Of a stretch of DNA of 64,000 nt, positions 5,304 to 62,773 are shown one piece after another. Both the position numbers and the translations under genes were made by a program. The notes beneath the pieces are model-generated. The model had not been told where the DNA came from, searched no databases, and was given only the letters and a program-made list of their open reading frames with translations. The DNA comes from Paramecium tetraurelia (lineage: Eukaryota), in the NCBI GenBank assembly GCA_000165425.1, contig CT867997.1, positions 496,001 through 560,000 on the forward strand, written 5' to 3'. How positions within the stretch are numbered: the stretch's first letter is position 1; the number at the start of each line of letters is the position of its first letter.

Positions 5304-8300
5304 TCAACTTTATTCCTATGATTGGATCGGTCTGATTTAATTTTATTAATTAACCTTATTTTAGTAGAATTCTTAGATCAAATAGTAGGTTAGATATATT
5401 AATGTCCCAAGAGTAAAGATTAAAGTTATTATCCACCCAACTAAGACACTTTTACTAGTTAGAATAACGAATGCTCCAAAATAGAACTATTATTTGCTAT
5501 TATATATACATAACATAAAATTAGCAATAAGGATCTTTCTACGATATTAAACCATTTTATATATGAGGGATTGAGTCTAAAATGGAAATAAATTAATCCA
5601 GCCATCACTGCAAAAGAGAAAAGCATTTAATACTAATATGCTGATTCTTACAAATTCGAAAATACTGAACTTGACCCCAGTATCAATAGCTTAGCTTATA
5701 TATATAAGACTACAAAATTCGATTTGTATTTTAAATCTAATGAACGATCCATGAATTGAAATGTAGGTTATAAATATGTTGAAAGTGGATAGTAAATTCC
5801 ACATCCTATTATAGCAAAAGAGATATATAAAAAATGTATGTCGCTCATACATTCTACCGAGGGTTGTCTTACTAAAGTATATGGATATTCACTGTAATCG
5901 CAAATGAAAGCATCGATGTATGTCTTCATGACAAATATAAATTATCCACTAATAATTTATATGGTTTTACTCACCCAGAATCTGAAGCTTTTAATTCCTG
6001 CTATTGATCCATCTTCATCAAAACCAAATGAATTATCAGCTATTTATTTACTAGCTTATAATCCTAAAACTATATAAGCTATACTCATTGTCAAAGCCAT
6101 AAAGAAGAAAAAATTATATTCACTCCAAATAGCTGAATAATCTACAGACTTGATAGGCTTGAATTCAGACTTCTCTCCAAACCAACCTACTTGAGAGTCA
6201 AATGATAGCGTAATTAATCCATATAGATCATAAACTCTTAGGAATACAGCTAATAGATTTGTTATTGTAAGTTTAAAGTGGAATTCCTGCTCATTTGCTT
6301 TCCTATCAAATTTATTAAATTCTTCTACCAAAACTCTGCACACTTATTAAGCCACTTTGGTCCAATCTTCATTTATTGGAATAGCTTTAGGTTCTATTGG
6401 AGCAATTTTGCTGTAAAGATCTGCCAATTAGTTCATAAATTTTTGGGTATATTTTTTGGGTGTTATCCAAATAGCAATGTGTATCTCTTTGCAAATTTCC
6501 CAAATCTTCTTTTCCCATTTGTGTGGAATTTTCTTTTTGTAATTGTTTTCAATTTCTAGTATTTTCTACTAATATTTATCATTAAGATCCTTTTATTCAG
6601 CAGACTACAAATCATTTAATTTATCTGTTTCTATTCGTGCTGGAACCTATATTTTATTTAAACATCTTCTTTCATCTTTGAATTTCTCAATTTTTATAAA
6701 ATTATGTTCTTAAATGACACTTGAAACACCCTTAAATTTTGTTATTTATTCATAAAAATTAGGATAATCATTAACAAAATGATAATAACTTGCAATAGCT
6801 AATTCTTAAACAGTCTCTTAATAAGAACGATCTTCATACTTAAAATTATCGTATATTAATAAGGCAAAGTCTTCTTCAGATAGAATAAACCCTTCATTTC
6901 TTTCTTCAAAACTTTAATATTACTTTAATATTTCATAATCCTTTTCTAATTTTAAGACCTCCAATATATTTGACAAATCACCTTTATTAATAAAATAATG
7001 ATAGACAGTTATCCAAAATCTTTCGGCTCTCCTGGAATCTGACATCATGGGTTAAAATTAATCAAGATATTTAGTATCTTTTGATAAAATAGTTGAGTGT
7101 CTTTATCTTATTCTTTTTTTTATTTCTATTCTTTACTCAAAACTTTATTTTTATTTTTCTAATTCTTATAAGTCTTTCTATTTATTATGTTCATTTAATT
7201 CCATATCCTCTAAATCATAAAATCCAAATTTGCACAATAGGCAAGAAAACAAACAATCTTGAACTTTATACAAAAAGCCTTGCTCTTCTTCTTAATTTCT
7301 TTATTTAATTGTATCGGCAGAAGTTAATGATGCCATTTCTACTTCATTGTCACTTAAGGATTTCCTTATTTTAAGTCGTTTTCTTTCTTAAATCTACTCT
7401 AATTTCTTTTTGTTTTCAAAATCTTATTTTGTTACAAGAATGTATTTAATATTGTTATTTTCTGCAGGATCTGGATGTTCATACATATTTACTGGATCCC
7501 CTTTGATTAAATCTGCCTCTAACTTACTCGAATTTCTATGCTGAACATATCTAACAAATAATAAAGATGAAATCTCTTCAGTTGCATAAACCCCATTTTC
7601 AGAAAATTCCTTCATAACTGCTCTAAGAACTTCTTTCTTCTTCATTTCTAATTGTTCTTTGTTTAACAAAACAGAATAAAAAATAGACAAAACTGTAACA
7701 CTTATTATAATAATTAAAATAGAATAAGCAACAGCTAATTAAGCAAATAAGGCAAATTCTGTAGAAGAGTTTTCAAAATAGTCTGCAAAAATTGGAAATA
7801 TGGTTCCAATTGGACCTATTATAAATGTCCATCCGATAATTACTACTAGTGGTTGAATAAATTATTAATAGATGACTGATTCCTGTTTTAATGAAATCTA
7901 AAATTTATAATACAAAAATGATAAAGGTACTCCAACCGTATTTGCTAATAAAGCATTTTTAGTTACTTCACTCTAAATGGTTAGTGCTATTGGCAATAAT
8001 ACTATTAATGGAAGAATGATTCCCACTGTAGTAAAATCCTACATTCTATTTAATAATTTTTGAGTATAAGTTTGATTTTCTTTCTAGTCAATATCTTTTT
8101 ATGTTTGTTCTTTAACTTCGAGAGATAAAGCATGACTTGTTAGAATAAATAAAATTGTATGTATACTTAGCAACCCTATTATCTAAAAGTATAAATAATA
8201 ATTTACTGTTCCCTTTTTTGTTCCAGTAGCTGTTTTTGGTTCATTCCAAGCAAAATAACAAATTAAATAAAAAGATATTATATAGCATATCGAATTATAC

Positions 8301-10026
8301 CAAACCGCATAGCTATTTAAGTTTACATACTCGTAAGCGACAAACTATAAATTTTCTGCCTATTTTGGTAATTTCAATAAGTAGATTATTACTATAATAA
8401 TATAATAAATGATTAAGAATATTATTGGAATAAGTCCAGCACTAGCCAACACAAATGCTCCTATCTATAATCCCTTATCATCAAAATACTCAGAAAATGT
8501 TAATAAAATTCCAAAAGGTATGGCAAAGGAAAAACATGAAAAAAGCATCACAAACAGCTTTTGATTTCTCTTTTCAGATCTAAAGTACCCAACTGTCAGC
8601 CACATTAATGATATAATTAACGGGCATATGCCTATTAATCTTGAAATTGACTTGATATACTCGTTTTCAATAGTCGAACTCCATACTTTAATACATATCA
8701 CACTAAGCGCAGCACCAAATAGTAAGGGAGTGTAGAGATACAAGTTCTATCTCTTGAATCTTGAGTTGCTTATGCATATTCCAAATATTATAAAAATTGG
8801 TAGAGCTAAAATTAAAAAGCCAAAAGTAACAATCTACTCAAAATCATGTGATTATAATCCTATTATTAAATTTGCATAGCAAAATATCTCAATAATTACA
8901 TAACTAATTGTAATCATCCATGGAACAAACTTTTAGAGTTTTAGCTTTTTGAATATCTGTTTTGCTCTTTTATTCATATTATAATTTAAATACTCATTTT
9001 TTATATCATTATCAGCATACTTTAATAATGAGAGCTAATATAAGTCGTATTTTATTGTCTTCTTTGGTAAATAAAATAGTCCTTTGATTAGAAAAATAGA
9101 GAATAAAAATATAACTAAAAATGTAGATGGAGCTATTATCTTAGATATATTATCAATAATGTATTCTACTTTAGTTGATTAAATAAGGAGTACAAAGGCA
9201 ATTATTTTAAAGAGGATAAAATATGAAACTAATACACAAAAACCACAATTAAATATTGTCGCAATAACAGCTGATGATACTCTTCTAATATATTCTAAAA
9301 GTCCTCTATTTATTAGAGAATTTATAAAAATCGCAATACTTACTATGCAATATCCTATCCCTATATAGTCTTATGAGAATCCATCTTAATTTCCAAAAAT
9401 ATTGAGATGGTATCCTAGTAGAACAAAAATTGGAATTATTATTAAACCTATAAATAGAAGGATCCAAATTAGATAGTTTTTAATTTATTAACAACTAAAA
9501 TTTCATAAATTATTACATTTATGATGATATTGTATAAAAAAAAGCATATACAGGCAATTGATGAGCTATTTATTAACGTATTTTATCATTTTTTATGATT
9601 TAATTATTTTCGATTGCCTAAAATAAAATTCAGTTTTACTATAGATTCTGAGAGAACACTGAAGTATGCACTCCAATATACTATTGTTATGATAAGCTAA
9701 TTTAGATCAAAACTTATTCTGTATTGTCTAGGACTACAAGTGAAAAATGCATTAAATCTGTCTTCAAATTGATTGTATTTTTTAAAAAATTATTCTACAT
9801 ACAATGGTTATTATGGGGTTTTAGCATTTTCTTTATTCTCAAGAAGTGCACTTAATTCTTATGCATCTTCACTTTCTGGGATAAAGAATTTGATATTTTG
9901 ATCTTTCAATTTTATAATACATTATGGTTAATTTGATTCCTATTCGCTACTAAAAACTATTTTATATCTTGAATTCTATTCATTTGGTTCAGATATGTGA
10001 TTGTTTGATTCTTCTTAATTAATCAT
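5304..10026 (-). CDS. Large multi-pass membrane protein of unknown function (about 1500 aa; could be two genes)
   Basis: Long ciliate-code frame with many hydrophobic helices (e.g. YLIWILLFIGLIIIPIFVLLG, LIGICPLIISLMWLTVG, VGWIITLIFTLGTLIYLTYYL). Includes ORF-track pieces 8465-8743, 7424-7690 and 6056-6343. Confidence 0.65.
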
Positions 10027-15219: not shown

Positions 15220-17997
15220 TCATTTCTAGATTTTAAATCTATCTTATTTATTTGCTGTGGGCTGTGGTACAACAATGGGTTTTATATTCCTAAAATATTA
15301 AGATGCATAATTATACCAAATCTTTTAAGCATACTCATGAATAGTTCTATCGCTACTAAACTTGCCTGATCTGATAGAATTGTAGAATGCTTTCTTAGCC
15401 CATTAAATCTTATCTTGATATAATTGATCAATCTGAAGAAATATTGGATGTATAACATACTTTAATTTGAGCTTAGGCGTAATGATAGAAGTCATGTCCC
15501 ACTAAATAGAAATCATTTCTATTTGTAATTGAGTCTAATAGTCCATGATGATCGTGTCCAAATATACCTGATCTTATAGCTTAGATAACATTCCAAAGAG
15601 GTTTTTGAACATATTGATAGGGATCAGAGTTTTTCATATTGTCAATCAATTTACCAACTTCTTCTACTCTTGCACCAAAAATGAAAATATTATCAAGTCC
15701 AACTTCTTCTGCAATTTCAATATTGGCACCATCCCAAGTTCCTAAAATGATTCCACCATTCATTACGAATTTCATATTGGATGTTCCTGATGCTTCTGTG
15801 CCTGCAGTTGAAATATGTTGAGAAATATCAGAGGCTGGTATAATGATTTCTGCTGATGATACATTATAATTGGGTAGAAACACTACCTTCAAGTAATGAT
15901 TAGTATCCAAATCATGATTTACGACTTCAGCAACAGCATTAATTAATTTGATAATTCTTTTAGCATTCAAATATCCAGGAGCTGCCTTTCCTCCAAAGAA
16001 AACAGTTCTTGGTGCGAATTTTCTTCTGCCTTCAGTAGGAGTATCCTTTAATAAAAGATATCTATAGATGACATAAAGGATGTTCATGAATTATCTTTTG
16101 TATTCATGAATTCTCTTAACTTGAATATCAAATAGAGTATCTGCATTAACTTCTACATTGCAATATTGTCTAACCCATTTGATGAGTCTTAATTTATTAT
16201 TTCTTTTGACTTTCATAAACTAGATTAATGCCAATTGATCTTCGCATTTGTCCTCTAGAGTTTTCAACATATCCATATTGAGTACCCATTCATCTGTGCC
16301 TAACCATTCATCGTACAATTTAGCCAATTGTTGATTGCATGATCTGAGCCATCTTCTTGGTGCAACACCATTAGTGATGTTAATGAACTTCTTAGGTCTC
16401 ATTTCATAATGATCCTTAAACAAATCAGTCTTCAATAAATCTGAATGGATTCTTGCAACACCATTAACCATATGTGATCCAATGATTGATAAATTAGCCA
16501 TTCGGATCTTTTTCACTGGGCCTTCTTCGATAAGTGAAAGTGCTGATAATTTGTGTGCATCTCCTGGGAATTTAGCACTTACCTTATTCAAGAAAATCAT
16601 ATTAACATAGTAGATAATTTCAAGATGTCTTGGTAATAAACTACCTAGCAAATCGACACCCCATTTCTCTAAAGCTTCAGGTAATACTGTATGATTTGTA
16701 TATCCAAAAGTCTTGGAAATGATTTCCCAAGCATTTGCATGAGTCATACCCTCTTGATCAATCAAAATTCTCAAGAGTTCCAAAATAGCTAAAGAAGGAT
16801 GAGTGTCATTTAATTGAATGGCTACCTTCTCTGGTAGAAGGGACCAATCTCTTCTTACTTTTTTAAATCTTCTGGTAATATCTTAAAGAGTAGCACTAAC
16901 TAGTAAATATTCTTATTTCAATCTGAGTTCTTTTCCAGCATAGGAACTATCATTTGGATATAAGACTGATGTTATGTATTCTGCTTTTTCTCTGGCTTCT
17001 AATGATTTGAAATAATCTCCTTCATTAAAACTAGTAAAATCAAACTCATTTGCTGGCACAGATCTCCACAATCTCAAAGCAATAGTATTGAATGTCATAT
17101 ATCCTGGGATTGGAGTATCGTAAGCTCTGGCTACTATTGTTTCCTATTAGGTCTAATAAAGATTTATACTCCTGCTTCCCATAATGACTTTTCTTGACCA
17201 TTCTCATGTCTCTTGACTACTCTTCCATAAAACTTGACTGGATATTACACATCCAATCTCTCGATTTCCCAAGGGTTACCCTTCTCTAACCAGTAATCAG
17301 GTGCCTCCACTTATTACCCATTTTGAATCAATTACTTGAATATTCCATAACTGTATCTAATGCCATAACCAAAGGCTGGGTAATTCAACGTTGCTAGTGA
17401 ATCTAAAAAGCAGGCTGCTAAACGACTAGAAAATAATTGATTATTTATACCCTAATCCACCATTTCCTAAGGCTGGATCTACTTCTTCATCATAGAGGTC
17501 TTCCAATTTGTAACCCAATTCTTGAACTGCTTCTGTGTAAGAGTCTTATAACCCTAGATTTCCTACAGCGTTTTATAGACATCTTCCAATTAGAAATTCA
17601 ATTGATAAATAGTATACTCTCTTGCAATCCTATTCATGAAAATACAATTGAGTATCATTAAAACTTTCAATCAATCTATCTCTTATAGAGTGAGACACAG
17701 CTTAATAACAATGTACTTAATGGAAATCAAATCTTGTTCTTGCAAGTGAAAATTCAACATGATTCACTATCTGCTCCTAAATACTTAATTTTATATTGGA
17801 TCATCATACCTTTTCTTGTCAGAAGGCAAGTAATTTTACATCAAATGCCACAATCTTTCATGATTAGCCAAGCTTTGCGTAGATCCAAACTCAGGTCTAA
17901 ATAATTAATTCATATTTGAATTGGACCCACAAAAGGATTTCCTAGACATTAAGGTCTTCGATTCACTGTTTTACATCTACTTTTATAAACCTGACAT
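15220..17997 (-). CDS. PYG: Glycogen phosphorylase
   Basis: [56 protein letters not shown], and the PLP-lysine motif [10 protein letters not shown], then GKFSSDRTI. Several short introns. Confidence 0.97.
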
Positions 17998-27884: not shown

Positions 27885-28592
27885 ATGTTCTTGTTTGAAA
27901 AAAAGTCGTAAAGAAATAGTACAGAATAGTAATCATTAAAAAGGTTACAAAATGACATGCTTGATGAAAAATTACAAGAATTTGATGATGATACCTGTGA
28001 AATTAATTTTAAAATGGTTAGCTCAATATTATAAATTGTTATGATTCCAAAAATTGGACCTTATGGATTTAAAAAGTTTTTTGTATTCCTTTATCTAATT
28101 ATTAGTTTTTCCTTGATTTTAGAATAAATTACCCTTATTCTCCTCCTAAAATATAAGCAGAATCAGATATCCCCCATCCAAACATAGATAGGAGAACTTA
28201 AACGTTTTATTTATAACTTCTGGAACCACAGAATTGGAGACCAATTTATGGGTATTTATGAAACATATAACAGTTTGACTGATATCATCAAAGCTATGAA
28301 ATAGACATTAATTTATGTAGATTTCACACACATACCAAATGAAGCTACTTGCCTCTTAATGGCTCAAAAAATATTATAACAAAATTAAACTCTTCAAGAA
28401 ATTGATTTCGAGTTGATTCATTTTGAAATTAGTGACAATTTTAAGATAAATTTTGAATTAAATGCAAACGAATTTTCTAATGAGGAATATAATTACTCAA
28501 GAATTTCTTAAGAACCAGCAACTATTAATTTATTAAAAACATAAAGACATACTTAAAATGATAGAATCATTTTTAATAATATAAAAAGTTGA
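27885..28592 (+). CDS. Ubiquitin-conjugating (UBC/E2) fold protein lacking the catalytic Cys
   Basis: SLKRLQNDM..IPKIGPYG..NYPYSPPKI..IPHPNIDRRTQTFYLQLL..WRPIYG. Two short introns. Confidence 0.8.
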
Positions 28593-42794: not shown

Positions 42795-44804
42795 TCATTA
42801 TTATAATGCAATTAACTCTATTTATGGTACAAATGATATTGTTGTTTTCTTGAATGAAACTTAGTATTTTTGATTTTGGATTAATTTCATAGCATTTACA
42901 GATGTCACAACGCATATCTAATGAAATGTTAATCAATAATAAATTACCATAACCAAATCCTTTGATTGATCTTGCATCTGCTAAGACACCATTTTATTGT
43001 CTTTTACTTGAGCAAAAAGCTATTGTGCCTCACTTAGAGAGGAACTGACAAATTTGAGGGTTTCTTAGAATGAACCGTAAGATTTCATCTTTTGGGTGTA
43101 TTCTTCAAATCTGATGGCTTTGATGTAATAACAAGCGTCAAAGATTTTCATTCTGTTAGAATATCGATGATCCATATCTTGGACTTTCTTAATGAACCCA
43201 TTTTCCATTAGGGTATAATATAACCTTGATAAACCCTGTTATTATAATAACATCTTACTCTAAAGAGACAATTCAATCCCTTCCAATATTAAATCTCAAA
43301 GTACATTTGATCAATCTATGGAGATACCTTGGGTTTCTTTTTGTTTTGGTTCTGTAATTATTCTCTTTATGAATTGGTCAATTGATTAACATAATTAGTT
43401 CGATTTCTGTCAAGAATGGTCGTCAAATACTCTAGATAAAAGTAAATGCCAGCATAATCTACATCCGAATAGAGTTCCAGATCAAATCCATATTGTAATT
43501 ATTGGATCATGGATTGTACAGCAATCTCATAACTGAAAATCATCAAAGGGTTTTTATTTTTGAAGATGTCTTGATCAATTTGATTGCTGTGATGAACGAG
43601 TATCGATAAATGAGAATAATTCTTATGAAAATCTCTGCTCTTTCTGAATTTCGATCTTAATTATTTAATTATGTATTCATAAGTAACAGGTACTAGGCAA
43701 TCTTGATATTCCTTGAACACATTTTGATATAATTGATCGAAGTTCTATGAAAACATTTTATTAAGGGTTCCGATGACGATATTAATCCACGGAGTTTAAT
43801 GGAAATAGAGGAATTAATCGTATTTAAATAGATTTTACTCTAGATAGGCTCTAATTAAAATATTCTTAGGATAATCATGAATCAAAGCACAAATTTTCTA
43901 TTAGATGCTAAAGTAATTGCGTTCTCCACTTAAATCAAGAACTGCTTCTAATTAAATTAGCATGGTACTAAAGTATTCATAAGGGTTTTCCATCTGAGGT
44001 ATTTTCCTCATGCTGATCATGGATTTGAGATGTTTAAGAATTGTCACGCTTTAATAGTTTGACATATCCTTCCCCATAGCCTTAGTTTACACTACAGCGT
44101 CAAATCTTTTTCTAATGAATTCGATGTGATCTGTTATTTATTTTTATGATTCCGCATTGAATGGTTATTAGAGAGATTGAACAATTAAACAAAAACCTTT
44201 TAGCAATTTAATTCTAGAGGAGAGCGCATCTGCTATAGTTAATTGCTTTGATTTCTTAACTTTGCCACTTAATTCGGTATCCAATGGATTTAAAGTAGTT
44301 GTCAATAACTCCTAAATAGTGGGTATTCTCTTGTTTCTGAAACTGAACACAGAGGGATTATAATCCTCTTCTCTGAGGAATGGAGCTTCCTTGATTATTT
44401 TGAAGATTTGGCTGCCTACTGTATTCAGTGTATCAAACAATGCTTTAACAAATGGATTATCCCATAAAGAATCATCATACTAATACACTAATGTGTAAAT
44501 GGTCTAAGCTAATGCATTTCCATTAAGCCAACATGTAATTTTCTGAATGACTAAATCAAAGAGTCCCACAAGCTACATAATCATTTTGAATATGGTTTAC
44601 TTCTTCATTAGTTAATTGTGATCCTGCCTTTATCTGCTGTGATTACAGTAATTTCTAAGGTGTATCAGCATCAGCCAATCCCAGTTTTACATCTATTTTC
44701 TTGTCAAATAATTCAGTTGCTGACATAGCCTCAAATAATGAAAATCCTTCTGCCAAAAGAATCTCTCCATTTTTGAGACTCCTAAGTTCTGCTGTAATAT
44801 CCAT
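42795..44804 (-). CDS. NAA35: NatC auxiliary subunit NAA35/MAK10
   Basis: MDITAELRSLKNGEILLAEGFSLFEAMSATELFDKKID, WLNGNALAQTIYTL, LREEDY, LGLMENG. Confidence 0.9.
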
Positions 44805-44830
44805 TAATTAAATTAATGTCTAAAAGTAAA

Positions 44831-45560
44831 ATGCAATTATACTAAGACTATGAATATGTACAACCCCAAGCGAATGTTAATTTAATCAACACTCACAAAT
44901 GCATTAAAGCAAAGAAGTAAAGGTTACATATATGTTAGAATACGAAAATTCAAAGTTCCCCAAATATCCAAAAATAATTAGATGACTCCAAATGGCTAAT
45001 TAATATGTTCATAAGAAACTACAACTAATTACTCATCAAAACCCTCTCAATACAGGAGAGAAACAATATTTTCTAAAAATAAGGAAAAATATCATTGTTT
45101 TCATGGATTTTATAATGTGAATCTTGGAGCTCTTTAGTAAAACGCGAATAAAGAATTATTGGATGTTGAGTCCCATTTTGTTGAGATGCAAAATAGTTCA
45201 CATAAATAGATATTCCTTCCATTGCCTCCAATTAAAGAAGTTGAAGAGTATGTGTTATACTAAGTATTTATATTAAAAGCAATAAGAGTAAACTTAAAGA
45301 AGTCAAGATAAATGAGTAACTGTATTCTTAAGACAATTTGGAATTGATTTTACTTAAAATTGACAAGTAACACAAAATTAAAATTGAGTACTATATCCAA
45401 ATAAGTTAGACCAAGCCTAATTGAAGGTTTTATTATAAATGACAAAATCTGGAAGGATCAACTTATAATTTACTTAGAATGTTATTCATTTGAAAGAATT
45501 TACGAACTGTAATTAGAATTTGAGGATTAATATGATTGCGAATAATTTCAATTATTTTGA
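44831..45560 (+). CDS. Hypothetical protein or pseudogene
   Basis: ATG at 44831 and coding-like segments, but I could not join the frames unambiguously. Confidence 0.3.
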
Positions 45561-45710
45561 ACAATTTAAAAACAAGCATTCTTTTTTGTATATTTAAAAT
45601 ATTATGTTTAAATTGAAATGTTAGAGAGATACACCTCTAAATCATCCTATTTTTAGAGAATTCTAGGATGAATCATTACAATATTTAATATATATATATA
45701 GTTATAGTTA

Positions 45711-45821
45711 TAGTCAGATAGTTTTAAGTCCATGCGTAACAAGAGTTTGGAGACCAGACTTGATTCCGCAATTGGATTTAATTCTCGCTCATCATTTGGT
45801 CAATCTGACCAGGGAAGGATC
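45711..45821 (-). ncRNA. SNORD13: U13/SNORD13 (snR45)-type box C/D snoRNA, predicted 18S rRNA ac4C guide
   Basis: Minus strand reads GATCCTTCC (45821-45813), box C ATGATGA (45795-45789), then CTTGTTACG (45743-45735) inside the stem AAGTCTG/TGGACTT, then box D CTGA (45717-45714). The two antisense elements pair with 18S 3'-end GGAAGGATC and CGTAACAAG. Confidence 0.85.
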
Positions 45822-45870
45822 GAGGAAAATAAATATATATTAATTGTTTAAATATTTATCACAAATCTCA

Positions 45871-45883
45871 AATTTTATGGGTT
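45871..45883 (-). promoter_or_regulatory. snRNA-type upstream sequence element (AACCCATAAAATT) of the SNORD13-like gene
   Basis: Identical 13-mer to the one upstream of U4, at the same distance (about -50 to -62) from the predicted 5' end. Confidence 0.75.
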
Positions 45884-45896
45884 ATTAAAATAAATA

Positions 45897-46530
45897 ATGA
45901 ATTTTTAAATCCTTGGACTTCTGTCATAATTGCCATCTAAGAAATATGTTAGGAAATTATTTGAATACGCTTATTTATTTAGAAACAAACTCAACTCATT
46001 TTAAGAATTTATGGAAACACCTGTGAGTGCTTCATTGCCTTAAGATTTATAAATGACTGAGAAATAAGCTCATACACTCATAATAGGGTTGGTAAAACTC
46101 TTAGAGAATGCAGAATTACTTCAATGGAATGAGTAAGCCATTTTGTAGCTATTTCCATCGACTTTTGATTAGCAATTAGCTAAATTGTTGACAGATTCTA
46201 TACTTTAAATCTCCGAATGTAAGTGCTTTCTAAACTCTTATTATAGTGTGCGATAAAATTACAAATAGAGAGATCTGTTAGGCAGATTCACTGATTGACA
46301 TTGATTGGAGAGTGGATATATAAATTTAGACGCATAATTAATAGAAGGTAAGGTTCTTTATAAATAATTAATAGGTTAATATGCCAGTCTTGTTTTTATA
46401 ATTGGAGACTCTGAATACTTAGAAAAATACAAAGGAGAATGTGACATTTCAGCTTAATTAAAATGAAGTTAATAATTTTCACAACAATTTGTGTAAAATA
46501 AAAGAATAATTATAAACTTTAGCTTAGTGA
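45897..46530 (+). CDS. COMMD9: COMM domain protein, COMMD9-like
   Basis: LFPSTFDQQLAKLL, LIDIDWRVDIQI, PVLFLQL, VTFQLNQNEVNNFHNNLCKIKEQL. Two introns. Confidence 0.8.
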
Positions 46531-55926: not shown

Positions 55927-58900
55927 ATGTAATTGGATGAGAGTAATAAAACAAAGAAAAATGAGTAGTCCATCCTTAAAGAAACCTCCAAAAACAGAAA
56001 TGTAATTACCCATAATTATCATGCAAGATAGTTTCTAAATTACAAGGAAATCCTGCACGATTATAGGGATTGAAAGATAGTTTCAAATACTTTACATTGT
56101 TAAAAAAGAATCAATATTTGGAAAGAAAACAATATAGAGTTAGCAGAGATGAGACATTGGTTTGTTCCTGCATAATGTGTCCTGAAGATCAAATATAAAG
56201 GTACATTAAATCGTAAAAATAGTCGACCTTAAGGTCCATAATATTCGTATAATTGCGGTGAGAGATGCTTGAATAGATTCACTTGCACAGAATGTGATGT
56301 AGAGTTGTGTCCATGCGCAGAACAATGCAAAAACAGAAGATTTTAGAAACATGATGATGCATGTGTATATCCATTACGTTGCGGAGGAAAAGGGATGGGT
56401 TTGTTTGCTGGCGAACGTATTTTGAAAGGACAATTCATAATGCAATATGTTGGCGAGATATTTCAAATAAATAGTGCATTTGGGAGAAGACGAGTGCAGG
56501 AATATTCGGTTTGAATTGTGTGTTTATTTTAGAAATCTACATGCACTTATTTAATGAAACTCAACAATTAAGAAGTTATTGATCCAACATCGAAAGGGAA
56601 TCTAGCAAGATTTATAAATCACTCTTGTGAGCCAAATTGTATTACTGAGAAATGGAATGTGTTAGGTGAAGTATGTATAGGTATATTTGCCATACGAGAC
56701 ATAAATGAGGATGAAGAATTGACCTTTGATTATTAATTTGACGTATTTCATACACCCTTGACTAAATGTCTCTGTGGAGCTAATAAATGCAAGGGATACT
56801 TGGGATTGAAGCCAACTGATGTTACATAAGAAGAGTGGGAAGAACATCTGGAAAATATGGTATGCAAAATATGTCAAACTAAAACACCATAAGATGATGA
56901 ATAACTATTGTTATGTGATAAATGCAATTGTGGATTCCATTTATTATGTCTTGTACCTCCATTGTCATCAGTACCAAAAGATGCTTGGTATTGTTAGGAA
57001 TGCTAGGATGAGAAAAGAATATTGGCTGAATCTGAAAAAGAGAAAGAAAAAATAGAAGGCTTATTGTAGTAGAAAGTTAAATAGTTGAATAATGAGAAAA
57101 AGAATAAGAAAAAGATGGATTCATCATCTTCTTCAAGTGATTCTGATAGTGAATATGATAACAGATATAAGATGATGAAATCTTTAGAGAAATAAACAGT
57201 CAGAGAATATTTATAATAGAAATAACATTAATAATAATAAATTAATAAATTAGAGGAAGATGTCAATTATAATAAAAAAGAAGATTTGGATACTAATACT
57301 TCAGATTTACCTCTGACTTCAAAGGGCATCAAATCTACAGGCACTTCATTAAACAACTTAGATCAATTTGTTAAACAGTCCTTTGAATTTTAATCACAGA
57401 ACAGTGGTAAACTATAGTAGATGCAATCTATTGTTGATGTAGCCTAAAAAAAGTTTGAAGAACAGTATAATGATAATAATGAATTGCAATAATAAATAGA
57501 ATAGATTCAAGTGTAAAATATCTAAAATATTGATACTAAAAAGGAATGTTTTAAAATCAATATTCTTGAATAGAAAGTAGTCAAAAAGAATGCTCCATTA
57601 ATTTATAAGATTGGAAACAAAATCAGTTTTGAATAAATAGATCAATAATATGCAGATTTCTTCAAGAAGGAGAACAACTTGACTGTCATTGGTTCTGTCT
57701 AATAGATAAGTATCTTCAGATCAATCCTAATCATGATTGAATAAATTATCAAAGAGCTGAAGAAAGAACTCGGAATCATAGAAGGGTAGATTAAAGTACC
57801 CATTATCTATTTAAAAAGATTAATAATGAAATTGTAATTATTTAATTCTAATTCTTAATAGCAACAGTTTAGATAAAAAACAAGAAGTTAACATCATATA
57901 TAATAAATCATTAGCTCATAGTGAAGAGATATTTCCAATGGACAAAGCTACTCCAATTAAAATTAAGGGGTCTAAATAGAACATCGAATCAACTGTCCAA
58001 GAGATATCAAAAATCTTAAAAACATTATGTGTTTAAAGACTGTATATAAGTAGAAGTGAAACTAAGACTGTTTAGCAAAACATGTATCATCTAAAATAAC
58101 ATGCTGAGATCCGTATATCGAGAGATTCCGTTTACAATGCAAAAGGCGAACAAACTTAGAGAGATATCAATCATCCATTCTTTTACATATAGTATAGGGA
58201 GAAGGAAGTCTGTTTGATTGGAACTCTTTAACAGATTTAAGATACTAGTAATGCTATTAAATTACTTCTGGAATAAGAGACCAATAATGAAAAGGAGATG
58301 ACTTATTTCACTGTTCTCATTTCTCCACAATATAAGGAGCAATGCAAATAGGTTAAATAGAGGATTGAAAAGGATTCTTCTTCTACCAAAGTACTCTTGT
58401 TTGAAGCCTCCCATCCTAGAAAGAATATGACGATATTGATATTGTGTTTAAGAAATCAGATTAAATAAACAAAGCAAATGTTTTTTGAAATGATTTAAGA
58501 GGATTGTCAATTAAAATTGGAATAGTTTTAAGATTAAATGTCTATGTAAATGTGTAGATATGTTTTTAAATACCTTTAAAATACAATGATGACTAATGAT
58601 ATGGCATTTATGAAGAATTGGGATCTTATTACACCATATTTTTATTAATTCAACATTATGAAGTATAGAGAATAGAAATTCGATAATTGGTTTGTTAAAC
58701 GCTGCTATCCATCCTTACTTAGAGATTATGAAACCTAATTGTATATCTAATATTGTTTAGGAAAGGAAATCTAAAAGAATTTAACTGATTAGGAGTAAAT
58801 GTTGAGGAAAAGGAATTTAATCCTATTAACCCGGAAAATTCTAAATGCAATCTTAGGATTTAAAAGACATCAGCCAGAATAAGCACAAATAGATGGAAAC

Positions 58901-62528: not shown

Positions 62529-62574
62529 AATTTAAATATATATATAAATTTCGTTTGTTTAATTTATTGAGGGT

Positions 62575-62712
62575 GTGAGTCTTTCGACCCTTCAGAAATT
62601 GGTGAACGACTTCACAAGGAAGTCGTACACTCGCATTGGAGTAGTTTTCAATTAGCAATCTCGCGTATCCGTTGGTACGTCACTTACAGCGATATTGCCC
62701 CTGAATAAGGAT
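62575..62712 (-). ncRNA. U4: U4 spliceosomal snRNA
   Basis: 5' ATCCTTATTCAGGGGCAAT (U6 stem II partner), 5' stem-loop with k-turn GTAAGTGACGT..ACGGATAC, TGCTAATTGAAAAC (stem I), 3' stem-loop ACGACTTC/GAAGTCGT, Sm site AATTTCTG (62600-62593), and terminal GAAA hairpin. Confidence 0.95.
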
Positions 62713-62760: not shown

Positions 62761-62773
62761 AATTTTATGGGTT
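62761..62773 (-). promoter_or_regulatory. snRNA upstream sequence element (AACCCATAAAATT) of U4
   Basis: Lies at -49 to -61 from the U4 5' end and resembles the CCCATAAA-type element described for ciliate snRNA genes. The same 13-mer occurs at 45871-45883. Confidence 0.8.

What the first reader, a model, noticed from the sequence alone, without database searches (positions are those of the whole stretch)
45711..45883. Stand-alone U13/SNORD13-type acetylation-guide snoRNA with its own snRNA-type promoter
Seen: a GC-richer island between genes. On the minus strand it has a 5' extension GATCCTTCC ahead of box C (ATGATGA), an internal CTTGTTACG held in a 7-bp stem, and box D CTGA. Established: the conserved 18S 3' end reads GTCGTAACAAGG..CCG..GGAAGGATC, and U13/SNORD13 (yeast snR45) pairs on both sides of helix 45 to expose the CCG cytidine to NAT10/Kre33 for ac4C formation rather than 2'-O-methylation. 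Inference: this is the ciliate SNORD13, implying RNA-guided rRNA acetylation in ciliates. I cannot tell whether it has been annotated before.
Basis: partly seen in the sequence, partly recalled or inferred. Interest (0 to 1): 0.85.

Follow-up and report, generated by a model that had tools for sequence, protein, structure and literature searches.

The report
Paramecium U13/SNORD13-type acetylation-guide snoRNA gene
This is an expressed, independently transcribed small nucleolar RNA of a Paramecium that has the hallmarks of U13/SNORD13, the guide RNA that lets an enzyme acetylate one cytidine near the end of 18S ribosomal RNA, a guide that had not been found in single-celled eukaryotes.

Summary
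On the minus strand, 45821 to about 45711, lies a ~110-nt box C/D RNA gene. It starts with GATCCTTCC and has box C, an internal CTTGTTACG closed by a 7-bp stem, and box D. It is expressed. One run of unrecorded kind (a guess: small RNA) gives a very deep contig whose adapter junction puts the 5' end at G45821. Stranded RNA-seq reads cover only this ~100-nt island, on the strand opposite to the neighbouring mRNA. The gene shares three things with the window's U4 snRNA gene: the ciliate ncRNA promoter element AACCCATAAAATT at -62 (U4: -61), a TATA-like box, and a downstream (TA)n-TTAAAT element. The host belongs to the Paramecium aurelia complex. The two antisense elements, plus a third weaker one, pair with both flanks of 18S helix 45 and leave CCGUAGG unpaired. 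A motif scan of metagenomes found 14 loci, 8 distinct sequences. One is an AT-rich ciliate-like homologue that scores E 1e-5 against Rfam snoU13, and the stem shows compensatory changes. P. tetraurelia helix 45 is known to be acetylated, but no SNORD13 was found in unicellular eukaryotes (PMC9226516). Verdict: a new member of a known family. The guide function is inferred, not tested.

The parts
45871..45883 (-). Upstream promoter element (ciliate USE/PSE) AACCCATAAAATT. Its first base lies 62 nt before the mapped 5' end.
   Evidence: an exact 13-mer shared only with the U4 gene (62761-62773, first base at -61). It matches the Tetrahymena/Paramecium USE consensus AAACCCATAA (PMC3273799) and the Oxytricha PSE (PMC3177221).
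45847..45854 (-). TATA-like box TATTTAAA at about -33 to -26
   Evidence: Read. U4 has TATATAAA at -32 to -25. Its function is inferred from position only.
45711..45821 (-). The box C/D snoRNA, about 110 nt. The 5' end is G45821. The 3' end was not mapped and is assumed to lie a few nt after box D.
   Evidence: the X2 contig (depth 3760.7, 0 differences) covers 45723-45823 and abuts adapter letters, so the RNA starts at 45821. X22 stranded reads reach depth 72, in one orientation only, with zero depth in the flanking bins. 45683-45722 was masked as a repeat, so the 3' end is unseen.
45813..45821 (-). 5'-terminal antisense element GAUCCUUCC (counterpart of SNORD13 element 18S-A). It is complementary to 18S GGAAGGAUC: the base of the 3' strand of helix 45 plus the following bases.
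45798..45810 (-). GGUCA-GAU-UGACC hairpin. Its 5' arm GGUCA can instead pair with the 18S helix 45 loop and 3' strand UGA(A)CC, as a counterpart of SNORD13 element 18S-B.
   Evidence: the hairpin folds at -6.7 kcal/mol; the duplex of RNA positions 1-16 with 18S UGAACCUGCGGAAGGAUC is -21.1 kcal/mol.
45789..45795 (-). Box C AUGAUGA
   Evidence: TGATGA is invariant in alignment A1, but it was part of the search pattern.
45755..45761 (-). 5' strand (AAGUCUG) of the stem that closes the loop holding the internal antisense element
   Evidence: across 7 sequences 90.5% of 42 cells are paired, 4 of 7 pairs change on both sides, and 0 of 500 shuffles reach the covariation score.
45735..45748 (-). Internal antisense element AAA-C-UCUUGUUACG (counterpart of 18S-C). 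It pairs with 18S CGUAACAAGG and, past a one-base bulge, with UUU.
   Evidence: and (duplex -18.8 kcal/mol)
45726..45732 (-). 3' strand (UGGACUU) of the same stem
45714..45717 (-). Box D CUGA
   Evidence: CTGA lies 11-26 nt after the internal element in 13 of the 14 metagenome loci.
45683..45698 (-). Downstream element TATATATATATTAAAT, a candidate 3' box
   Evidence: the pattern has only 2 matches in the window, here and 32-48 nt after the U4 3' end (62530-62546); expected 0.01; (TA)5T runs occur only at these two places. The pattern was chosen after seeing both sequences.
62578..62712 (-). U4 snRNA gene, used as the internal reference for promoter and downstream elements
   Evidence: Rfam RF00015, 85.5 bits, E 1.3e-17

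Best explanation
This is the Paramecium orthologue of U13/SNORD13 (yeast snR45; plant snoR105/108/146). It is an independently transcribed, abundant box C/D snoRNA of about 110 nt. SHOWN: it is expressed from the minus strand with its 5' end at G45821. It sits behind the ciliate ncRNA promoter element, at the same distance as in the U4 gene. Its 5' domain and its internal loop are complementary to the two sides of 18S helix 45. INFERRED: in the pre-40S particle the 5' end (GAUCCUUCC, then GGUCA) pairs with the 3' strand and loop of helix 45 and the bases after it, and the internal UCUUGUUACG (plus AAA) pairs with CGUAACAAGG(UUU) just before the helix. Helix 45 is thereby held open, and a 7-nt bulge CCGUAGG presents the second C of CCG to the acetyltransferase NAT10/Kre33, which makes ac4C. 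The C/D core proteins serve as scaffold, not as methyltransferase.
For: Anatomy. Expression, strand and 5' end. The X2 contig has depth 3760.7 and its adapter junction lies at 45821. X22 reads have the first mate on + only; the neighbouring + strand mRNA gives the opposite orientation, which shows the library is stranded. Flanking bins have zero depth. Promoter and downstream elements shared with U4: with PMC3273799 and PMC3177221. Pairing: the Rfam SSU_rRNA_eukarya consensus and four contaminant eukaryotic 18S ends; 44 of 47 fetched 18S ends have the same helix 45; duplexes of -21.1 and -18.8 kcal/mol leave CCGUAGG free. Homologues: all 14 metagenome loci found by the three-motif pattern look like genes of this kind, and 13 of 14 have box D at 11-26 nt. 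L049 is 84/114 identical to the window RNA and scores 39.2 bits, E 1.1e-5, against Rfam snoU13. L055 scores 32.2 bits, E 0.0015, against the plant snoR105/108 family of the same clan. The stem covaries. Conservation: in run X9 (organism C) the RNA region differs at 4 of 126 bases, against 27 of 241 in the neighbouring gene. Host: Paramecium aurelia complex. Literature: helix 45 ac4C was detected in P. tetraurelia, and SNORD13 is required for that ac4C in human and zebrafish (PMC9226516, abstract and sections). Acetylation guides pair on both sides of a bulged target cytidine (PMC12848939, Introduction passage).
Against: Rfam snoU13 gives the window RNA only 9.3 bits, E 7.5, and nothing at E<=10 in a 601-nt scan. 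The host's own 18S could not be read because no genome is held; pairing was tested against the eukaryotic consensus only. The 3' end is unmapped because it lies in a masked repeat. No clear terminal stem joins boxes C and D. The minimum-energy fold instead pairs GGUCAGAU with AUCUGACU, which covers box D, and the fold is no better than shuffles (z -1.06). The kind of run X2 is a guess, and X22 is an oligo-dT library that should under-sample a snoRNA. Adapter ligation suggests a 5' monophosphate or a decapped RNA rather than a capped primary transcript. The homologues were fetched with the window's own motifs, so those three motifs cannot count as independent conservation. No functional test was done.
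Confidence: 0.75

Rival explanations
1. It is a U13-family snoRNA, but its job is to chaperone folding or processing of the 18S 3' end: timing of helix 45 formation, dimethylation of the loop adenines, or 3' end cleavage. On this view NAT10 acetylates helix 45 without it in ciliates.
For: The pairing would unfold the whole of helix 45 and cover the loop, which is more than is needed to expose one C. The authors of PMC9226516 leave open that NAT10 may act alone in lineages where no SNORD13 was found (Discussion passage). In Tetrahymena an unassigned long, essential box C/D RNA with rRNA complementarity (TtnuCD32) is proposed as a processing factor (PMC3273799). Whether it is related to this RNA is unknown.
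Against: In human and zebrafish, loss of SNORD13 removes the ac4C, and that ac4C is dispensable for ribosome biogenesis (PMC9226516 abstract). The host genus has both the guide-like RNA and the modification.
Confidence: 0.15
2. It is an ordinary 2'-O-methylation guide box C/D snoRNA.
For: It has canonical boxes C and D. There are weak Rfam hits to methylation-guide families at E 1.9-4.8.
Against: Neither antisense element abuts a D or D' box: CUUGUUACG ends 17 nt before box D, and the 5' element lies upstream of box C. The fifth-nucleotide rule therefore cannot apply (established knowledge of C/D guides). At about 110 nt it is well above the 55-77 nt typical of ciliate C/D guides (PMC3273799).
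Confidence: 0.03
3. It is a chance assembly of short motifs in AT-rich intergenic DNA, or a fragment of another transcript.
For: Each motif is short. A second GATCCTTCC lies 362 nt downstream.
Against: There is deep, sharply bounded, strand-specific coverage. The promoter and downstream elements are shared with U4. There are homologues with compensatory changes.
Confidence: 0.01

Closest known systems
Vertebrate U13 / SNORD13 (Rfam RF01210 snoU13)
   Same: Box C/D RNA of about 105-110 nt, transcribed from its own promoter. The antisense element is at the very 5' end. A second, weaker element lies before box C. A third internal element (CUUGUUACG) sits in a loop closed by a stem. All target the flanks of 18S helix 45 (PMC9670809, sections read; Rfam consensus printed).
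   Different: Outside the motifs the sequence is unrelated (9.3 bits). The 5' element is a perfect 9-mer here. The promoter is the ciliate USE/PSE. I could not compare stems I-III in detail because the figures and supplements were not available.
Saccharomyces cerevisiae snR45 (with Kre33 and Sni445)
   Same: A box C/D snoRNA with two guide sequences that pair on both sides of the helix 45 target cytidine and leave it bulged for Kre33 (PMC5464676, abstract in the listing; PMC12848939, passages).
   Different: snR45 is described as having little similarity to SNORD13, a shorter antisense region and a longer intervening loop (PMC9670809). No Rfam snR45 hit appeared. A Sni445-like adaptor was not looked for.
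Plant snoR105/snoR108/snoR146 (Rfam RF00304, clan CL00081)
   Same: U13-like RNAs of the same Rfam clan. One metagenome relative found here (L055) matches this family at 32.2 bits, E 0.0015.
   Different: The window RNA itself gives no hit to RF00304.
Tetrahymena TtnuCD32
   Same: An abundant 98-nt box C/D RNA of a related ciliate with a long stretch complementary to rRNA. It is unassigned to any family and reported as essential (PMC3273799).
   Different: Its sequence lies in a supplement that I could not open, so homology is untested. T. thermophila helix 45 lacks the CCG motif (PMC9226516).

Membership tests
U13/SNORD13 (Rfam clan CL00081) | Box C (RUGAUGA) and box D (CUGA) | tested here: met
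   AUGAUGA at 45795-45789 and CUGA at 45717-45714
U13/SNORD13 (Rfam clan CL00081) | Antisense element at the extreme 5' end, complementary to the 18S 3' terminal GGAAGGAUC | tested here: met
   GAUCCUUCC makes 9 of 9 Watson-Crick pairs with the Rfam eukaryotic consensus. The adapter junction places the RNA 5' end at its first base. The host 18S itself was not read.
U13/SNORD13 (Rfam clan CL00081) | Internal antisense element complementary to 18S CGUAACAAGG just 5' of helix 45, held in a stem-closed loop | tested here: met
   UCUUGUUACG makes 10 pairs including one G-U. The stem has 7 bp, with 4 of 7 pairs showing compensatory changes across 7 sequences.
U13/SNORD13 (Rfam clan CL00081) | The two duplexes bracket the CCG cytidine and leave it unpaired | tested here: met
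   Only CCGUAGG stays unpaired when both duplexes form (on the 18S end of locus L003, which equals the Rfam consensus).
U13/SNORD13 (Rfam clan CL00081) | Score at or above the Rfam gathering threshold for RF01210 (46 bits) | tested here: not met
   9.3 bits, E 7.5. The ciliate-like homologue L049 reaches 39.2 bits, E 1.1e-5, still below 46. The model has no base pairs and its consensus reads like vertebrate U13.
U13/SNORD13 (Rfam clan CL00081) | Independent transcription unit with an snRNA-type promoter | tested here: met
   The USE/PSE is identical to that of U4, at -62 against -61. A TATA-like box and a downstream element are also shared. The RNA is an isolated expression island. Which polymerase transcribes it was not tested.
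U13/SNORD13 (Rfam clan CL00081) | Required for NAT10/Kre33-dependent ac4C in helix 45 | not testable with these tools
   Only the presence of ac4C at helix 45 in P. tetraurelia is known (PMC9226516).
U13/SNORD13 (Rfam clan CL00081) | Association with the box C/D core proteins and nucleolar location | not testable with these tools
   Not tested
Canonical 2'-O-methylation guide C/D snoRNA | An antisense element of 10 or more nt ending directly upstream of box D or D' | tested here: not met
   17 nt separate CUUGUUACG from box D, and the 5' element precedes box C.

The most novel reading that the evidence does not exclude
SNORD13 is not confined to animals, plants and budding yeast. It is ancestral to eukaryotes and survives in at least two further lineages: ciliates (this gene and the AT-rich contigs L049/L054) and an unidentified GC~51% eukaryote from gut and other metagenomes. 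RNA-guided base acetylation of helix 45 would then be as old as the eukaryotic radiation. The apparent absence in protists would be a detection failure, which a three-motif pattern overcomes. A bolder corollary concerns ciliates whose helix 45 has lost the CCG, such as Tetrahymena. A retained homologue there (possibly the essential TtnuCD32) would point to an acetylation-independent role for this RNA.
Probability: 0.55. Interest if true: 0.7.

Novelty: new member of a known kind. Interest (0 to 1): 0.6.

Why it matters
The survey in PMC9226516 detected ac4C in helix 45 of P. tetraurelia. Its Discussion (passage) states that no SNORD13 counterpart could be identified in unicellular eukaryotes. 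That left open whether NAT10 acts alone there or whether the guide had simply escaped detection. This gene answers the question in favour of a hidden guide. It also makes the question testable in an organism with easy RNAi and macronuclear transformation. In addition, the same simple pattern pulls SNORD13-like genes of other protists out of metagenomes, which extends the family and gives covariation support for its core stem.

Tried and rejected
- **Rfam.** The gathering scan of the whole window found only U4. The permissive scan of 45500-46100 gave no U13, snR45 or snoR105 hit at E<=10. The 131-nt scan gave snoU13 at 9.3 bits, E 7.5, which is not significant.
- **Own genome.** None is held, so I could search neither for the host 18S nor for a duplicate copy.
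- **The look-up of sequencing runs.** No RNA holder listed. The holders' kinds are guesses, so I used only what the lay showed.
- **Run X1 (organism A).** It gave no listed piece over the RNA itself, so I draw no conservation claim from it.
- **Single-sequence fold.** Not better than shuffles (z -1.06). The RNAalifold consensus on A1 gave only 6 pairs with no compensatory change. I rejected it in favour of the hand-named stem, which I then tested.
- **Second GATCCTTCC at 45451-45459.** The covariance model gives 15.4 bits, E 0.088, in the 70-kb search. The site lacks box C and the internal element, and no reads cover it. I read it as chance or a decayed relic, not a second gene.
- **Other ACCCATAA sites (28246-28253 minus, 56008-56015 plus).** I saw no obvious RNA gene behind either.
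- **Host identification by the phosphorylase ORF.** This was misleading: the best hits are only 63-65% identical, to Tetrahymena and Paramecium alike. The 1199-aa membrane protein settled it.
- **Chen et al. 2009 (PMC2661823).** This Paramecium ncRNA survey is not held. I cannot say whether it already lists this locus as an unnamed ncRNA.
- **Earlier scan findings.** Nothing near this place or like this sequence.
- **L058.** It matches the pattern but has no CTGA within 40 nt and scores 21.3 bits. I left it out of alignment A1.

Full report
**What is there.** On the minus strand the sequence from 45821 down to about 45711 reads as follows.
- GATCCTTCC (45821-45813).
- A 5-bp hairpin, GGTCA-GAT-TGACC.
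- Box C ATGATGA (45795-45789).
- A 45-nt spacer.
- CTTGTTACG (45743-45735), in a loop closed by AAGTCTG (45761-45755) paired with TGGACTT (45732-45726).
- Box D CTGA (45717-45714).

The stretch is a GC island of 36-37%, against 20-24% either side. GATCCTTCC occurs twice in the window (expected 0.30; 4 of 100 shuffles reach 2) and CTTGTTACG once (expected 0.06; 6 of 100 shuffles reach 1).

**It is an RNA, and its 5' end is where predicted.** The run search listed 20 holders in 11 studies under three coded organism labels. None is on record as RNA, so I rely only on what was laid.
- **Run X2.** This is a tiny contig set of 2.16 million letters; its kind is a guess. One 183-nt contig has word depth 3760.7 and matches 45723-45823 with no difference. 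The letters that run on beyond 45823 are ones I recognise, from recall, as the reverse complement of a commercial small-RNA 5' adapter. The last two aligned bases also belong to that adapter, so the RNA begins at G45821, the first base of GATCCTTCC.
- **Run X22.** These are raw oligo-dT paired reads, 263 of them laid. The bins 45724-45804 reach depth 72, entirely with the first mate on +. There is nothing at 45400-45696 or 45832-45885. The neighbouring + strand gene (ATG at 45898) is covered only with the first mate on -. The library is therefore stranded, and the small RNA is a separate minus-strand unit.
- **3' end.** It cannot be seen, because 45683-45722 was masked as a repeat.
- **Run X9 (organism C).** The RNA region differs at 4 of 126 bases, while the neighbouring gene differs at 27 of 241.

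**Gene architecture.** The 13-mer AACCCATAAAATT lies at 45883-45871, with its first base 62 nt before the 5' end. It recurs exactly at 62773-62761, 61 nt before the U4 snRNA gene that Rfam finds at 62578-62712 (85.5 bits). These are the only two exact copies. With up to 2 mismatches there are 9 matches against 9.4 expected, so only the exact pair is informative.

The element matches the USE consensus AAACCCATAA. [quoted passage not shown] It also matches the Oxytricha PSE found 50-60 nt upstream of snRNAs (PMC3177221, passages). The "snRNA-type promoter" is thus real, but in ciliates it is the general promoter of independent small RNA genes.

Both genes have a TATA-like box near -30. Both are followed on the same strand by TATATATATATT(N)AAAT, at 45683-45698 and 62530-62546. 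These are the only two matches in the window (expected 0.01) and the only (TA)5T runs. I chose that pattern after seeing both sequences. It may be the Paramecium 3' box that PMC3177221 attributes to Chen et al. 2009, a paper I could not read.

**Host.** The window has 27.5% GC. It has introns of 24-28 nt, seen in the Rab gene and in the gene at 45898, and uses the ciliate code. A 1199-aa ORF (5378-8977) finds 9 proteins, all from Paramecium aurelia-complex species. The best is 95% identical over 97% of the query, in a cluster named P. octaurelia. A phosphorylase ORF gave only 63-65% identity to Tetrahymena and Paramecium alike. I cannot explain that beyond guessing at an unsampled paralogue.

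**Pairing with 18S.** No genome is held for the window, so I took the target from other tool outputs. Of these, 44 of 47 have the same 19 bases between the flanks. The flanks themselves were fixed by the pattern and say nothing about conservation. Four of four loci tested are Rfam SSU_rRNA_eukarya. The printed consensus ends in GUCGUAACAAGG, helix 45 (UUUCCGUAGG / UGAA / CCUGCGGAAG), then GAUCAUUA.

Against this end:
- RNA positions 1-16 pair with UGAACCUGCGGAAGGAUC. This is 9 contiguous pairs, then C10, GG and UCA across two bulges and one mismatch; -21.1 kcal/mol.
- The internal UCUUGUUACG pairs with CGUAACAAGG, and AAA pairs with UUU past a bulged C; -18.8 kcal/mol.
- Only CCGUAGG is left unpaired.
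- One of 500 shuffles of the RNA does as well in a whole-RNA duplex.

This is the geometry described for acetylation guides: pairing on both sides, with the target cytidine in an unpaired bulge (PMC12848939, Introduction passage). It also matches the three antisense elements 18S-A, 18S-B and 18S-C described for SNORD13 (PMC9670809, section 5).

**Relatives.** One metagenome scan used the pattern GATCCTTCC, 10-40 nt, TGATGA, 25-55 nt, CTTGTTACG. It returned 14 loci holding 8 distinct sequences. In 13 of 14 loci (7 of 8 distinct sequences) CTGA follows 11-26 nt after the last motif.
- **L049 and L054.** These are identical to each other, have 19% GC, and carry a PSE-like ATCCCATAAT at -66. They are 84/114 identical to the window RNA.
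- **Nine loci with about 51% GC.** They comprise three variants, and one record is titled as a human-gut metagenome. They come from an eukaryote I did not identify; a gut protist such as Blastocystis is only a guess.
- **L055 and L060.** These are further lineages.

Each of the 7 sequences that has box D forms a 5-8 bp stem round the internal element, and the stem sequences differ between lineages. On MAFFT alignment A1 the 7-pair helix is paired in 90.5% of 42 cells. Four of 7 pairs change on both sides. No shuffle of 500 reaches the covariation score or the percentage paired, and slid registers reach at most 55.8% paired. Realignment to a covariance model gave the same numbers.

Rfam links the set to the U13 clan (7 loci searched):
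- L049 scores 39.2 bits, E 1.1e-5, full length, against snoU13.
- L055 scores 32.2 bits, E 0.0015, against snoZ279/R105/R108.
- L050 and L060 are weak (E 0.35 and 0.54).
- L048, L052 and L058 give nothing at E<=1.

The window RNA alone scores 9.3 bits. One caveat applies throughout: the three motifs were the bait, so only box D, the stem, the spacer similarity and the Rfam scores are independent evidence.

**Literature.** SNORD13 is required for the single helix 45 ac4C in human and zebrafish (PMC9226516, abstract). The same paper reports ac4C at helix 45 in P. tetraurelia. It lists T. thermophila among species lacking the CCG motif. It states that no SNORD13 counterpart could be identified in several phyla, algae or unicellular eukaryotes (sections 23, 25 and Discussion passages). 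Its supplements, which list all candidates, were not available to me.

Full-text searches gave the following:
- "SNORD13" with "Paramecium": 0 papers.
- "tetraurelia" with "ac4C": only that paper.
- "U13", "snoRNA" and "Paramecium": only the Tetrahymena ncRNA survey, which cites plant U13.
- A 2023-onward search listed 25 of 33 matching papers. By title and abstract none is about protist SNORD13.

The locus may still sit unnamed in the 2009 Paramecium ncRNA catalogue, which I could not open.

**Mechanism and rivals.** The best reading, at about 0.75, is a U13/SNORD13 orthologue that opens helix 45 and presents the CCG cytidine to NAT10. The main rival, at about 0.15, is that the same pairing serves 18S 3' end folding or processing, with acetylation independent of it. 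A methylation guide is excluded by the position of the antisense elements relative to the boxes. Chance is excluded by expression, the shared gene signals and the covarying homologues.

Weak points:
- The host 18S was not read.
- The 3' end is unmapped.
- There is no evident terminal C/D stem. Ciliate C/D RNAs often lack one (PMC3273799).
- The adapter-ligatable 5' end sits oddly with a capped primary transcript.
- There is no functional evidence.

Noticed in passing
window 45683-45698 and 62530-62546 (minus strand): A shared downstream element TATATATATATT(N)AAAT follows both PSE-driven genes (the snoRNA and U4). These are the only two matches and the only (TA)5T runs in 64 kb. It is a candidate Paramecium 3' box.
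   Followed up: partly
window 45451-45459 (minus), model match 45374-45459: A second GATCCTTCC lies 362 nt downstream on the same strand. The family model scores it 15 bits, but it has AUAAUAA in place of box C, no internal element and no read coverage. It is either chance or a decayed tandem copy.
   Followed up: yes
window 45887-46298 (plus strand): A small protein gene (ATG 45898, 28-nt intron 46219-46246, no Pfam hit) is transcribed divergently. Its 5' end lies about 65 bp from the snoRNA start, so the PSE sits within about 4 nt of the mRNA's apparent start. In the small run X2 the first 193 nt form a contig of depth 861.
   Followed up: partly
window 45642-45671 (minus strand): An 8-bp inverted repeat TCATCCTA...TAGGATGA lies about 40 nt downstream of the snoRNA. 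Its role is unknown. The Rfam BsrC match there is a chance hit.
   Followed up: no
L048, L050, L052 (about -47 to -37 from the RNA start): The GC-rich metagenome homologues carry a conserved ATTATGGGTT upstream. This is the reverse complement of the ciliate USE core AACCCATAAT. It is either an inverted promoter element or the element of a divergent gene.
   Followed up: no
L050, L053, L056, L059, about 55-65 nt after the internal element: These variants have GGAAGGATC downstream of the gene, the exact complement of the RNA's 5' element. This recalls the 3' extension that masks the 5' antisense element in pre-SNORD13 (stems IV/V in PMC9670809).
   Followed up: no
L055 112-197 (minus strand): A selenocysteine tRNA gene (71.3 bits) lies about 170 nt downstream of the SNORD13-like gene on the same strand.
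   Followed up: no
window 15428-17182 (minus strand): A glycogen phosphorylase ORF has best database hits of only 63-65% identity, even though the host is a Paramecium whose sibling species are in the database. The reason is unexplained.
   Followed up: no
window 43148-44929 (minus strand): The next gene downstream on the same strand encodes a NAA35/Mak10-like subunit of the NatC protein acetyltransferase. I read this as a coincidence of neighbourhood, not a functional link.
   Followed up: no
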